Positions 46,969 through 48,777 of a stretch of 49,835 nt of DNA are shown one piece after another; the stretch's first letter is position 1; every line of letters begins with the position of its first letter. The stretch spans positions 1-49,835 of the forward strand of contig CALRGL010000001.1 in NCBI GenBank assembly GCA_943357275.1, written 5' to 3'. A model generated the notes under the pieces. That model was given only the letters and a program-made list of their open reading frames with translations. It had not been told where the DNA came from and did no database searches. The stretch comes from Candidatus Uhrbacteria bacterium RIFOXYB12_FULL_58_10. GTDB lineage: Bacteria > Patescibacteriota > Patescibacteriia > UBA9934 > GWF2-40-263. Position numbers and translations under genes: made by a program.

Positions 46969-46997
46969 TTGACAAAATCGCTAAAATCAGCTATTCA
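46969..46997 (+). promoter_or_regulatory. Sigma70-type promoter (TTGACA-N17-TATTCA)
   Basis: TTGACAaaatcgctaaaatcagcTATTCA, followed by ggTTCTCGCAA. This is the same start context as the promoter at 13019. Confidence 0.5.
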
Positions 46998-47003
46998 GGT
47001 TCT

Positions 47004-48225
47004 CGCAACCTGAAACCCACCGAGGAGAAAGGACCGGAAGATGATGAGGAAGTTCCTCAGTCACCTCACCGGGGCGTTCTCGGTGATGGTAACAGGATGG
47101 GCCTGTGCGCTTACGACCGGGGCCGGTCGCAGCGTAACGGGCAGTCAGAGAAATCCGGCGGGTGGCAGAGGCGGCTTCGAGCGCGCCAAGCCCCACCGTC
47201 GGATGTCGGCGAAAGCGAGCGGCGAATACCCCTGTGGGTATGCCTAGTGCCTTCTAAAAAGAAGCGGAACCTTGCAAACGCAGCGCCACGAGTTGGCCAT
47301 TGCGAGGTTCCAAACCAACAACTGGCTTTCCCAGAAAGGAACGGCCAAATGCGCGACGAGACTGACGAGTTCACCGAACCGATTCGGTGAACTCAACGTT
47401 TGCACCCGATTGCGTTCAGATTAAGCCGGAGTCAAATCAGCCGGAAAATCTGATCGCGTTGATCGGGAACCACCTCAGAACGGACGGAGGATGCAACTTG
47501 GTAGGATAAAGTGTCCTACTGACTTGTACGAATCTTGACGGCAGACCAATAGGTTTGCCGGGTCCCCAAAGTCGTCCAACGGGGAGTTTGTTCGGCCTGC
47601 CAAGGGCCACCCGCGGTTTGTGAGCGAGAATTCGCCACGCCGCCTTCCAACAAATTCGCGATTTTCTGGTATATTATCGACCTTTCGCCGGAAGCGGGGA
47701 TCCCTGCTTACTGGCGGCACAGGTCGTTTGTCACGGCCAAGAATGCAAGGCTCAGCGTACCGCTGACCTCCAACCAATGTTGCATGGCCGTAGCGGTGCG
47801 TGCGCGGTATCTGACTCCGCCACGCCCGCAGTCCTGCGCGTCTGCCCATGACGCGAAACAACGGCTGCTGGTTTTTGCCGCAGCCCGATCCAGAGCTTCT
47901 TCCGCGATTACCGTGGAGTGCGCCCTATCTTCGTTCGCACCCGGAAGCCAGCTCTCTCCGAGCCCCGTCCTCCCGCGACCCCCCACTTCTGGCGTCCCCT
48001 GTGACGCATCGCGAGAGCAAACCTGGCTCACACGTGCCGCCCAGCAGATCTTCCACCTTGGAACTCTGACTGGGCGTTTTTATTTTCACCCAAGACCGTT
48101 GCAAAACTCGCCATCTTAGCTCGAACAGGCGCCCACCAACCCAACTCAACGTACCTTTTGGTACGTTTCGCAGGGCTCGGAGCCCGTTCGAACTAATCTG
48201 ACAAGTTTTTCAACAGTCTCCATCC
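47004..48225 (+). ncRNA. GC-rich ORF-free transcript(s), candidate large structured RNA of unknown class
   Basis: No protein-like ORF in any frame; all listed ORFs are Arg/Pro/Ser-rich shadows. A consensus promoter lies upstream. It has many perfect local hairpins (e.g. GAGTTCACCGAAccgaTTCGGTGAACTC at 47367-47394) and a possible internal extended -10 (TGGTATATT, 47668-47676). Confidence 0.3.
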
Positions 48226-48230
48226 TTATA

Positions 48231-48259
48231 TTGACAAAACTGGTGCTTTCCCATACGCT
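48231..48259 (+). promoter_or_regulatory. Sigma70-type promoter (TTGACA-N17-TACGCT)
   Basis: TTGACAaaactggtgctttcccaTACGCT. Confidence 0.4.
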
Positions 48260-48265
48260 CAACTC

Positions 48266-48767
48266 ACTCGGACCTTGTCGAGGGAGAACGATGATGCTGG
48301 ATCGCCTTACCGCGAGCCTAAAATGCGTCATTGGGAAACTCCTGATGACGCTTGGTCTGAACGATTTCAGGCCTCTGTCTTTTCCTGCTATTGGAAAGAC
48401 ACGACGTTCTGAAGTCTTGATTTGTACGGCTTGCTTTGAACGGCCTCTGTTGTCTGAACGATTGTGGGAATCTACCAAATTCAGTCTCGGTGGACTCCTC
48501 AGAAAGAACGCCGCGTTTCCAAGCGGCTTTGCCTAGCTACCTTCGTCAGGGTCACGGCCCGTGTACTGGTACCTACCAAACAAGACCGGTGGGATAGTGC
48601 AGGGTCGAGCCGATGTTCTCAATTCGGTTAGAACGATGCTTCTTGCTCGCCACAACGGCGAAACGGTCAACGCAACTAAGCGCGTTCTGACCACTGACCG
48701 CCCGAAGGACTCTTTTCGCGCTCACCACTGCTGAGCCAAGGATGTCCATCGGGCGTTCTTTTTTTTA
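48266..48767 (+). ncRNA. Second GC-rich ORF-free transcript (~500 nt), unknown class
   Basis: It runs from the promoter at 48231 to a long terminal hairpin, CGCCCGAaGGAC...GTCCaTCGGGCG (48699-48755), followed by TTCTTTTTTTT. Confidence 0.3.
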
Positions 48768-48777
48768 TTAAGAAGAC

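What the first reader, a model, noticed from the sequence alone, without database searches (positions are those of the whole stretch)
46969..48770. ~1.8 kb GC-rich, ORF-free region driven by consensus promoters: one or more large structured RNAs of unknown class
The genome is otherwise tightly packed and AT-rich, yet 46.97-48.77 kb has no protein-like reading frame. All six-frame ORFs there are short Arg/Pro/Ser/Ala-rich shadows. The stretch is GC-rich like the rRNA.

Transcription signals:
- A near-perfect TTGACA-N17-TATTCA promoter at 46969.
- A second TTGACA-N17 promoter at 48231.
- A possible extended -10 (TGGTATATT) at 47668.
- A long hairpin plus T-run at 48699-48767.

It contains many perfect local helices, for example the 12-bp stem at 47367-47394.

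Two short motifs echo the rsr-adjacent ncRNA region:
- CUUUCGCCGGAAGCGGGGAUCCCUGC (47683-47708) resembles the island's minus-sense CUUUAGGCCG-N6-GGGGAUCCUUC.
- GAGCCTAAAATG (48314-48325) resembles GAGCCTAAAACG (12108-12119).

I looked for RNase P (GAGGAAAGUCCGG / ACAGAACCCGGCUUA), tmRNA, SRP, 6S and group I/II intron hallmarks. I found only weak partial resemblances: GAGGAGAAAGGACCGG at 47023 and AACAAGACCGGUGGG at 48579.
Basis: partly seen in the sequence, partly recalled or inferred. Interest (0 to 1): 0.75.

Follow-up and report, generated by a model that had tools for sequence, protein, structure and literature searches.

The report
Tandem small-protein genes on structured RNAs
The GC-rich 1.8-kb stretch that looked gene-free is two back-to-back transcription units, each with a conserved 70-80-codon small-protein gene followed by a long, tightly folded non-coding tail; it has no match in any known family, its function is unknown, and I found it in only five Uhrbacteria-like Patescibacteria lineages.

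Summary
The anomaly is real. Window 46969-48770 is 52-59% GC against about 40% in the flanks. It holds no ORF longer than 128 aa and no Rfam, Pfam, NCBIfam, PHROG, PADLOC or PDB match.

It is not ORF-free, and it is not one RNA. Relatives from four other lineages (L003, L013, L014, L010/L012) show two units.

Unit B runs from the promoter at 48231 to the terminator at 48700-48766.
- **Each unit opens with a Shine-Dalgarno-preceded small ORF.** ORF-B (48291-48536, 81 aa) is intact in all five lineages. It keeps the same start and stop, has only in-frame length changes, and shows a strong third-codon-position excess.
- **ORF-A** (47041-47247, 68 aa) is intact in all three lineages that have Unit A. 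Both proteins are basic and end in [FY]-P-[SC]-G-[FY]-A-stop, so they look like paralogues.
- **The rest is non-coding and strongly folded**: 0.84 kb in Unit A and 0.23 kb in Unit B. Compensatory changes support Unit B's 3' domain and several Unit A modules. The 355-nt block that looks best conserved (47596-47950) is shared only with the closest relative.

Best reading: lineage-specific, probably highly expressed small-protein mRNAs with functional structured RNA parts.

The parts
46969..46997 (+). Promoter of Unit A: -35 TTGACA (46969-46974), 17-nt spacer, -10 TATTCA (46992-46997)
   Evidence: Read from the sequence. 'CTTGACAAAATC' is invariant in window, L003 and L013. The -10 reads TAATCT in L003 and TATTCT in L013.
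47004..47040 (+). Unit A 5'UTR, the best-conserved segment of the unit. It is predicted to pair with the first codons of ORF-A and bury the SD and AUG.
   Evidence: Identity is 0.89-0.97 between lineages, against 0.70-0.85 for ORF-A. RNAalifold helices at columns 16-26/81-93 and 45-53/57-66 are almost invariant.
47041..47247 (+). ORF-A, a small basic protein of 68 aa ending GEYPCGYA-stop
   Evidence: It is intact in window, L003 (68 aa) and L013 (70 aa, with an in-frame 6-nt indel), with the same start and stop. In the C-terminal block 12 of 27 differing codons are synonymous in this frame, against 6/27 and 1/29 in the shifted frames. The N-terminal block shows no such signal. No family match.
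47266..47311 (+). Conserved 12-bp hairpin just 3' of ORF-A (GGAACCUUGCAA...UUGCGAGGUUCC)
   Evidence: Every pair is kept in all 3 lineages, with one C-G to U-G change. A weak sub-threshold CRISPR-DR29 hit here (22.8 bits, gathering 39) is a single copy and was disregarded.
47367..47394 (+).
   Evidence: Self-complementary. L013 appears to keep a hairpin of altered sequence at this position, and L003 appears to keep it only in part; both readings are by eye from alignment A6 and were not computed.
47482..47577 (+). Conserved multi-helix domain in the Unit A 3' region: outer helix GGACGA/UCGUCC enclosing two hairpins
   Evidence: 34 predicted pairs in 3 lineages, 4 with compensatory changes. Identity between lineages is 0.76-0.90.
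47596..47950 (+). GC-rich (60-66%) non-coding block shared only by the window and L003. It contains the extended -10-like TGGTATATT at 47668.
   Evidence: 96% identical to L003 but about 46% (unalignable) to L013. 1-2-nt indels break every ORF in it. For 47520-48085, substitutions fall mainly in unpaired positions of the + strand fold: 27/206 unpaired against 12/360 paired. The - strand shows no such bias.
48039..48086 (+). Intrinsic terminator of Unit A (GCCCAGCAG...CUGACUGGGC followed by a U-run)
   Evidence: 100% identical in L003. L013 keeps it with an A-U to G-C compensatory change (by eye from alignment A6). Its 3' half is also present at the start of L014.
48087..48230 (.). Window-specific ~145-nt imperfect palindrome inserted between the two units
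   Evidence: Absent from L003. Self-complementary over 130 nt at 69%.
48231..48259 (+). Promoter of Unit B: -35 TTGACA, 17-nt spacer, -10 TACGCT
   Evidence: The -35 and the TA of the -10 are invariant in 5 lineages. It matches the window's promoter pattern, which occurs 7 times against 1.3 expected.
48291..48536 (+). ORF-B, a small basic protein of 81 aa with a conserved N-terminal helix, a variable middle and a C-terminus LGGLLRKNAAFPSGFA-stop
   Evidence: It is intact in 5 lineages (246, 237, 243, 240 and 246 nt) with the same start, stop and GGAG SD. Substitutions by codon position are [47,23,65] in the N-terminal block and [31,30,88] in the C-terminal block. The only database relatives are P0169 and P0170. 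The AlphaFold model is low-confidence, pLDDT 57.
48537..48767 (+). Structured 3' domain of Unit B, including the long terminator hairpin (stem 48700-48754, U-run 48756-48766)
   Evidence: 69 predicted pairs, 15 with compensatory changes in 5 lineages. Over the whole unit, 24 pairs have compensatory changes, against 11.3±2.4 in shuffles and 6-11 in slid controls. Fold z-score is -5.98 on the + strand and -2.88 on the - strand.

Best explanation
The region holds two tandem, probably paralogous transcription units that are specific to a small Uhrbacteria-like clade.

**Layout of each unit**
- A consensus sigma-70-type promoter of the same type as the one upstream of the 23S gene.
- A short leader.
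- An SD-preceded small ORF for a basic 68-81-aa protein. The protein has a conserved N-terminal helix and a conserved C-terminus ending [FY]P[SC]G[FY]A.
- A long GC-rich non-coding 3' part made of stable helices.
- An intrinsic terminator.

**What is shown**
- The unit boundaries.
- That ORF-B is coding, and that ORF-A probably is.
- The presence of conserved, covarying RNA helices.

**What is inferred**
- The elevated GC is maintained by selection for RNA structure rather than by recent import. I infer this because it persists in lineages whose flanking LTD proteins are only 54% identical.
- The folded leader and early coding region limit translation.
- The structured 3' parts stabilise the transcript, are processed into separate RNAs, or both. 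That would make these dual-function RNAs: a small-protein mRNA plus a structured RNA module.
- The basic proteins possibly bind nucleic acid.

The cellular role is unknown.
For: - **Two units.** Promoters and terminators are conserved in 3 lineages (Unit A) and 5 lineages (Unit B).
- **ORF-B is coding.** It is intact in five lineages, length changes are all in frame, and third-position excess is 88 of 149 substitutions in the C-terminal block. Synonymous codon differences are 51 against 57 non-synonymous.
- **ORF-A is probably coding.** It is intact in three lineages with an in-frame indel, and shows a frame-specific synonymous excess in its C-terminal block.
- **Shared C-terminal motif.** It occurs nowhere else in six-frame translations of the window and the 11 loci then held, L001-L011. 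The aligned N-terminus and GG also match.
- **Charge.** Both proteins carry a net charge of +5 to +11.
- **Folding.** The + strand gives z = -8.25 for 47248-48085 and -5.98 for 48262-48770, stronger than the - strand in both cases.
- **Covariation.** It is above the controls for Unit B, and compensatory pairs occur in Unit A modules.
- **GC.** Units are 0.51-0.60 against flanks of 0.41-0.44 in four lineages.
- **No known family.** Neither the RNA nor the proteins match one.
Against: - There are no expression data. Promoters and terminators are consensus matches only.
- ORF-A's N-terminal block has no codon-position signal, and a 64%-GC ORF of 68 codons stays open by chance fairly often.
- Paralogy of ORF-A and ORF-B rests on short motifs and 21-25% identity.
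- Covariation rests on 3-5 sequences, and the structures were predicted from the same alignments.
- In L013 the - strand folds as well as the + strand: z = -6.5 against -4.8.
- The high identity of 47596-47950 and 48500-49835 with L003 could reflect recent recombination rather than constraint.
- The function of the proteins and RNAs is pure inference.
Confidence: 0.55

Rival explanations
1. This is the first reader's view: one or more large structured non-coding RNAs of a new class, with the small ORFs incidental and untranslated.
For: - Strong folding z-scores.
- Covarying helices, including hairpins inside the ORFs such as the 12-bp stem in the N-terminal part of ORF-B.
- The 5'UTR and non-coding modules are more conserved than ORF-A.
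- ORF-A's N-terminal block has no codon signal.
- GC is above rRNA level.
Against: - ORF-B shows codon periodicity and synonymous excess. It keeps the same frame, start, stop and SD in five lineages despite a very divergent middle.
- ORF-A has an in-frame indel and a frame-specific synonymous excess.
- ORF-A and ORF-B share a C-terminal motif at the protein level but not at the DNA level.
- An internal terminator splits the region into two units.
- The largest 'conserved' block is not conserved in L013.
Confidence: 0.1
2. These are type I toxin-antitoxin-like modules of the hok/sok or aapA/isoA type. On this view a small toxic protein is made from a heavily folded mRNA that hides its ribosome-binding site until processed, and the modules have been duplicated in tandem.
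For: - Tandem small ORFs with a moderately hydrophobic N-terminal helix.
- Predicted burial of the SD and AUG in conserved helices in Unit A.
- Predicted pairing of the Unit B SD with the 3' end.
- Strong promoters, lineage restriction, and a locus with variable gene content.
Against: - No antisense promoter-like site in any lineage.
- The proteins are 68-81 aa and basic. Their best 19-residue hydropathy is 0.8-1.7, so there is no clear transmembrane helix.
- No PADLOC, Pfam or NCBIfam toxin match.
- SD-to-U-tract pairing is a common artefact of folding programs.
- The 0.84-kb 3' region has no parallel in known type I systems.
Confidence: 0.12
3. These are precursor genes for secreted or modified peptides: a long leader, a Gly-Gly cleavage site, and a short conserved C-terminal core ending [FY]P[SC]G[FY]A.
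For: - A GG pair lies 13-24 residues from the C-terminus in both ORFs and is invariant in the alignment.
- The extreme C-terminus is conserved.
- The overall length resembles long-leader precursors (this comparison is from my own knowledge of NHLP/Nif11-type precursors).
Against: - NCBIfam, which includes the NHLP and Nif11 leader models, gives no hit.
- No maturation enzyme or peptidase-containing ABC exporter lies next to the units in any of the five contexts.
- The conserved part is the putative core, whereas in such families the core is usually the variable part.
Confidence: 0.08
4. This is non-functional foreign DNA or decayed genes acquired from a GC-rich donor.
For: - The contig carries other GC-rich, foreign-looking genes: a 65%-GC ORF at 2999-3877 and the rsr island.
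- Large lineage-specific indels occur inside the region.
Against: - The units sit at the same chromosomal position in lineages whose flanking LTD proteins are only 54% identical.
- Host-type promoters, terminators and ORFs are conserved.
- The structure covaries.
- No protein homology in any frame, though one search is weak because it missed P0169 and P0170.
- No match in the phage or plasmid collections by blastn.
- In viral contigs, two 21-22-mers gave no match and an ORF-B protein scan found no relative.
Confidence: 0.05

Closest known systems
Dual-function (coding) sRNAs such as S. aureus RNAIII/hld, B. subtilis SR1/SR1P and E. coli SgrS/SgrT (comparison from my own knowledge)
   Same: A 0.5-1.1-kb, highly structured, promoter-to-terminator transcript that carries a small ORF plus extensive conserved non-coding helices. 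Unit B at about 505 nt is close in size to RNAIII.
   Different: - No sequence or Rfam relationship.
- The ORFs are longer (68-81 aa) and sit at the 5' end.
- No target-pairing function is known.
- Translation and regulatory activity are untested.
Type I toxin mRNAs (hok/sok, aapA1/isoA1)
   Same: A small ORF on a compactly folded mRNA with a predicted occluded ribosome-binding site and possible 5'-3' pairing. Copies are in tandem and the distribution is narrow.
   Different: - No antisense RNA signal.
- No transmembrane toxin-like peptide.
- The 3' region is far longer.
Large ornate bacterial ncRNAs (OLE, ROOL, GOLLD, raiA, HEARO)
   Same: A long GC-rich, highly folded non-coding stretch in an AT-richer genome, close to a tRNA gene. 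It was found by the same GC-rich intergenic-region logic used for those RNAs (PMC6429828, PMC11109978).
   Different: - No covariance-model match even at E<=10.
- Only short modules are conserved beyond the nearest relative.
- Small ORFs are an integral part of the unit.
3'UTR-derived sRNAs that share the mRNA's terminator (for example CpxQ, DapZ; from my own knowledge)
   Same: In Unit B, the 3' domain and terminator are conserved and covary downstream of a coding sequence.
   Different: - No processing-site or chaperone evidence.
- The domains are much larger, 230-840 nt.

Membership tests
Rfam families (RNase P, tmRNA, SRP, 6S, OLE, ROOL, GOLLD, HEARO, raiA, group I/II introns, riboswitches) | A covariance-model match at or near the family's gathering score | tested here: not met
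   cmscan found nothing in 46969-48770 at gathering score. At E<=10 it found only noise, the best being CRISPR-DR29 at 22.8 bits against a threshold of 39. Nothing was found in the homologous units of L010, L013 or L014.
tmRNA | A tRNA-like domain plus an internal tag ORF without a start codon | tested here: not met
   ARAGORN finds no tmRNA in the window. The ORFs here have an SD and an ATG, and the transcripts end in intrinsic terminators.
Protein-coding gene (small protein) | The reading frame is preserved across lineages, with third-position and synonymous excess | tested here: met
   ORF-B: five lineages, all lengths divisible by 3, substitutions by codon position [31,30,88] and [47,23,65]. 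ORF-A: three lineages, an in-frame indel, and a signal only in the C-terminal block.
Structured RNA (general) | Base pairs maintained by compensatory substitutions above the controls | tested here: met
   Unit B has 24 pairs with double changes, against 11.3±2.4 in shuffles and 6-11 in slid controls; the 3-sequence test gave 12 against 5.0±1.7. Caveats: there are few sequences and the structure was derived from the same alignment. Unit A has 8 and 4 compensatory pairs in two modules, not tested against controls.
Type I toxin-antitoxin | A small hydrophobic (transmembrane) toxin peptide | tested here: not met
   Best 19-residue Kyte-Doolittle mean is 0.8-1.7, net charge is +5 to +11, and length is 68-81 aa.
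Type I toxin-antitoxin | A cis- or divergently encoded antisense RNA with its own promoter | tested here: inconclusive
   No consensus promoter-like site on the minus strand in any lineage. Weak promoters would be missed, and there are no transcript data.
Type I toxin-antitoxin | An mRNA fold that sequesters the ribosome-binding site | tested here: inconclusive
   Predicted in both units, but the helices are nearly invariant, so covariation cannot confirm them.
RiPP precursors with NHLP/Nif11-type leaders | A match to the leader-peptide models, with adjacent maturation or export genes | tested here: not met
   No NCBIfam or Pfam hit. The neighbours are an LTD protein, a 76-aa protein, purA, HAM1 and tRNA-Gly.
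CRISPR array | Repeated direct repeats separated by spacers | tested here: not met
   There is a single sub-threshold repeat-like hit, and the repeat search finds no copy of it among the families and pairs it listed.
Mobile element, phage or plasmid fragment | Similar DNA in phage, plasmid or viral collections, or multiple genomic copies | tested here: not met
   - No blastn match in the phage or plasmid collections.
- No viral-contig match to two 21-22-mers.
- No viral relative of ORF-B.
- nhmmer finds no extra copy in the window or the loci held.
- Copy number in the complete genome cannot be tested.

The most novel reading that the evidence does not exclude
The 0.84-kb 3' part of Unit A and the 0.23-kb 3' domain of Unit B may be new structured RNAs that act together with the small basic proteins encoded on the same transcripts. 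That would make a self-contained, highly expressed RNA-protein particle specific to a Patescibacteria clade, comparable in kind to the OLE ribonucleoprotein.
Probability: 0.15. Interest if true: 0.7.

Novelty: new variant of a known kind. Interest (0 to 1): 0.42.

Why it matters
Patescibacteria have tiny, densely packed genomes. Keeping 1.8 kb of mostly non-coding, GC-rich sequence behind promoters of the type that precedes the 23S rRNA gene therefore suggests a real function. The locus adds an unannotated small-protein family: gene callers missed or mis-called ORF-A and ORF-B in most of the contigs I examined. It also adds candidate structured RNA domains in a phylum where very little non-coding biology is known. 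Finally, it is a cautionary case for GC-rich intergenic-region screens. A region that looks ORF-free can hide conserved small ORFs, and high identity to one close relative can overstate RNA conservation.

Tried and rejected
- **Rfam** at gathering and permissive thresholds, on the window and on relatives: nothing.
- **Six-frame 'polyprotein'** of the region against 5.8 billion proteins: no hit. This word-indexed search also missed P0169 and P0170, which phmmer later found, so its negative result is weak.
- **Protein family and structure libraries** (Pfam, NCBIfam, PADLOC, PHROGs, PDB) for ORF-A, ORF-B and the shadow ORFs: nothing meaningful.
- **Exact 20-22-mers** from the block most conserved with L003: no match in viral, GTDB-genome or JGI-metagenome collections. 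That block later proved not to be conserved beyond L003.
- **A codon-degenerate pattern** for the ORF-B C-terminus: 0 matches in GTDB genomes and 1 in JGI metagenomes, which was the same lineage as L010.
- **Other collections**:
  - blastn against phages and plasmids: no match.
  - Viral scan with the ORF-B alignment: no relative.
- **Syntenic locus of a 58%-identical HAM1 relative (L006)**: no unit there.
- **AlphaFold on ORF-B** with 3 sequences: pLDDT 57, too poor for fold search.
- **Homology between the target and the other GC-rich islands** of the contig: none, apart from a promoter/leader-like match at 4126-4214(-).
- **Literature search** for the C-terminal motifs: no paper.
- **Look-up of the window's own LTD protein**, to see the public gene calls: not on record.
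Full report
**1. The observation**

Window 46969-48770 lies between a coiled-coil protein gene (46483-46887) and a HAM1/RdgB gene (48829-49563).
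- GC is 0.59 for 47001-48000, with peaks of 0.665. The immediate flanks are 0.32-0.42 and the 23S rRNA on the same contig is 0.50.
- The longest ORF in any frame is 128 aa.
- Rfam gives no family at gathering score and only noise at E<=10. ARAGORN finds no tmRNA.
- The promoter-like sites at 46969 and 48231 and the hairpin plus T-run at the 3' end are present.
- TTGACA-N16-18-TAnnnT occurs 7 times in the window against 1.3 expected. The sites include 48231, the HAM1 promoter at 48778, and one upstream of the 23S gene.

So the raw anomaly is real.

**2. Relatives**

The HAM1 and LTD proteins place the contig in Uhrbacteria-like Patescibacteria. The longest contig on record for the exact-match LTD protein P0121 is 49,835 nt, the window's length, so the window is probably a whole contig. 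Five lineages carry homologous sequence.

| Locus | Source | Relation to the window | Layout |
|---|---|---|---|
| window | this contig | - | coiled-coil gene, Unit A, Unit B, HAM1, tRNA-Gly |
| L003 | 108-kb ENA contig | HAM1 98% identical, flanking LTD-gene region 84% at the DNA level | whole region, followed by purA-HAM1 |
| L013 | Logan contig, 2639 nt | found through P0169, ORF-B 66% identical | LTD, 55 aa, 76 aa, Unit A, Unit B, tRNA-Gly |
| L014 | ENA contig, 1139 nt | found through P0170, ORF-B 62% identical | end of Unit A, Unit B, purA-like gene |
| L010 and L012 | ENA and JGI | LTD protein 54% identical | LTD, 76 aa, Unit B, tRNA-Gly, with no Unit A |

Nothing else turned up. The searches covered GTDB species genomes, JGI metagenomes, viral contigs, phages, plasmids, and a full phmmer pass over 1.84 billion protein representatives. 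The element is therefore vertically kept at one chromosomal position, downstream of the LTD and 76-aa genes and upstream of tRNA-Gly. It belongs to a rarely sampled clade. Other genes (the coiled-coil gene, purA, HAM1) come and go around it.

**3. Two units, not one RNA**

It is 100% identical in L003. L013 keeps it with a compensatory A-U to G-C change, and L014 has its 3' half.
- Unit A runs from the promoter at 46969 to that terminator, about 1.08 kb.
- Unit B runs from the promoter at 48231 to the terminator at 48700-48766, about 0.5 kb.
- Between them the window alone has a 145-nt imperfect palindrome.

**4. The region is not ORF-free**

*ORF-B (48291-48536, 81 aa).*
- A GGAG Shine-Dalgarno sequence precedes it.
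- It is intact in all five lineages (246, 237, 243, 240 and 246 nt). Start and stop sit at the same aligned positions, even though the middle third is barely alignable.
- Substitutions by codon position are [47,23,65] in the N-terminal block and [31,30,88] in the C-terminal block.
- In the C-terminal block, 51 differing codons are synonymous and 57 are not.

This is a coding signature that RNA-structure constraint alone would not produce.

*ORF-A (47041-47247, 68 aa).*
- It is intact in the three lineages that have Unit A, with an in-frame 6-nt indel in L013.
- Its C-terminal block has 12 synonymous of 27 differing codons in frame, against 6/27 and 1/29 in the shifted frames.
- Its N-terminal block, which overlaps invariant helices, shows no such signal.

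*Shared features.*
- Both proteins are basic, with net charge +5 to +11.
- Both start M-[ML]-x-x-x-[LF], followed by a short amphipathic or hydrophobic helix.
- Both contain an invariant GG and end in [FY]-P-[SC]-G-[FY]-A-stop.
- That motif occurs nowhere else in six-frame translations of the window and the 11 loci then held, L001-L011. The similarity is at the protein level, because the codons differ, so I read the two ORFs as paralogues.
- Neither matches Pfam, NCBIfam, PADLOC, PHROGs or PDB.
- An AlphaFold model of ORF-B is low-confidence, pLDDT 57, and shows little beyond an N-terminal helix.

**5. The non-coding remainder**

Every ORF downstream of ORF-A is broken by 1-2-nt indels between the window and L003.

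*Folding.* The + strand folds far better than shuffled sequence and better than the - strand.

| Segment | + strand z | - strand z |
|---|---|---|
| 47248-48085 | -8.25 | -4.31 |
| 48262-48770 | -5.98 | -2.88 |
| L013 Unit A 3' part | -4.8 | -6.5 |

The L013 result means strand asymmetry is not general.

*Substitution pattern.* Between the window and L003, substitutions in 47520-48085 fall mainly in unpaired positions of the + strand fold: 27/206 unpaired against 12/360 paired. The - strand fold shows no such bias, 16/200 against 23/366.

*Covariation in Unit B.*
- RNAalifold predicts 127 pairs, 24 of them with compensatory changes. Shuffles give 11.3±2.4 and slid controls give 6-11.
- The signal is concentrated in the 3' domain 48537-48767, where 15 of 69 pairs have compensatory changes.
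- Examples are the CGCC-ACAAC-GGCG hairpin, which becomes CGUC...GACG in L010, and the terminator stem.

*Conservation along Unit A, as pairwise identity between lineages.*

| Segment | Identity |
|---|---|
| 5'UTR (47004-47040) | 0.89-0.97 |
| ORF-A (47041-47247) | 0.70-0.85 |
| Block 47248-47325, which contains hairpin 47266-47311 | 0.75-0.96 |
| Block 47475-47595, which contains domain 47482-47577 | 0.76-0.90 |
| Terminator (48040-48085) | 0.83-1.0 |
| Block 47596-47950 | 0.96 to L003, about 0.46 to L013 |

- In hairpin 47266-47311 every pair is kept in all three lineages.
- The multi-helix domain 47482-47577 has 34 pairs, 4 of them compensatory.
- Block 47596-47950 contains the extended -10-like site at 47668 and the stretch that is 100% identical to L003. 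Its apparent conservation may reflect recent shared ancestry or recombination rather than clade-wide constraint. The same caveat applies to 48500-49835, which is 98-100% identical to L003.
- The predicted folds bury the SD and AUG of ORF-A in near-invariant helices, and pair the SD of ORF-B with the 3'-terminal GUUCUUU. These helices hardly vary, so covariation cannot confirm them.

**6. Interpretation**

The best-supported reading has four parts.
- There are two tandem, paralogous, probably highly expressed transcripts.
- Each encodes a small basic protein and carries conserved structured RNA modules.
- The elevated GC is maintained for RNA structure. It persists in lineages whose flanking proteins have diverged to 54% identity, whereas imported DNA would have drifted toward host composition.
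- Function is unknown. I favour a dual-function arrangement, in which a small-protein mRNA carries structured 3' parts that stabilise it or are processed into RNAs. Confidence is 0.55.

Rivals:
- Pure non-coding RNA (0.10) is contradicted by the ORF evidence.
- Type I toxin-like modules (0.12) would fit the buried ribosome-binding sites and the tandem copies. However, I found no antisense promoter and no transmembrane-type peptide.
- Leader-GG-core peptide precursors (0.08) have no family match and no maturation genes nearby.
- Inert foreign DNA (0.05) is contradicted by positional, promoter, ORF and structural conservation.

**7.

- The 'echoes' of the rsr-adjacent RNA region do not hold. The rsr-side motif GCCG-N6-GGGGATCC matches only its own three repeats.
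- The 12-mer at 48314 lies inside ORF-B and is not conserved in relatives.
- The weak RNase P-like strings have no covariance-model support.

**8. Limits**

- No expression or proteomic data were available.
- Only 3-5 lineages exist, two of them nearly identical over parts of the region.
- The structures were predicted on the alignments used to score them.
- The collection scans are exhausted, so wider distribution cannot be ruled out. The word-indexed protein search demonstrably misses short relatives.
- Contigs from other samples break at both edges of the region: L001 and L002 end at 46963 and 46951, and L008 and L009 start at about 48752 and 48768. This may reflect strain mixtures, GC-dependent coverage or repeats. 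I could not decide which.

Noticed in passing
window 48829-48914, compared with L003 4646-6004: The window has lost about 1.29 kb of purA (adenylosuccinate synthetase), which in L003 and L014 lies between Unit B and HAM1. As a result, the 244-aa HAM1 ORF carries a 27-codon N-terminal extension, at least part of which is left from the purA 5' end.
   Followed up: partly
window 48087-48230: A window-specific ~145-nt imperfect palindrome (69% over 130 nt) is inserted between the Unit A terminator and the Unit B promoter. It is absent from L003, and I found no other copy in the window.
   Followed up: partly
L003 about 3284-3400 (after window 47459): L003 carries about 109 nt here that the window lacks, inside the variable part of the Unit A 3' region. 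L013 has a shorter, different sequence at this point. The spot is an indel hotspot.
   Followed up: no
window 46951-46963 and 48752-48768: Four independent short contigs from other samples are 100% identical to the window flanks and stop or start within a few bases of the two edges of the GC-rich region. I could not tell whether this is caused by strain mixtures, coverage bias or repeats.
   Followed up: partly
window 2999-3877 (-) and 4126-4214 (-): A 292-aa ORF of 65% GC has a coiled-coil-like sequence and no Pfam match, and looks like a foreign gene. Its upstream promoter/leader region matches the Unit A promoter/5'UTR profile (nhmmer E = 2.6e-5).
   Followed up: partly
window 9826-11400 (-) and 11718-12519: An rsr/Ro60 gene (TROVE plus vWA_Ro60 domains) lies in a 51-60% GC island. 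It is followed by three direct repeats of about 44 nt that contain GCCG-N6-GGGGATCC on the minus strand. These may be Y-RNA-like modules. Rfam does not recognise them at gathering score.
   Followed up: no
window 35478-38848 (-): 23S and 5S rRNA genes lie here with no 16S gene found anywhere on this 49.8-kb contig. The 23S match spans 3070 nt against a model of 2925, so it may contain a small insertion.
   Followed up: no
window 40006-40728 (+): An ORF with a LAGLIDADG homing-endonuclease domain runs into tRNA-Leu (40633-40717).
   Followed up: no
L010 4180-4250: Just upstream of the Unit B promoter, L010 and L012 carry a short tandem array of CTAATCT(T)AA-like units. It is absent from the other lineages.
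   Followed up: no
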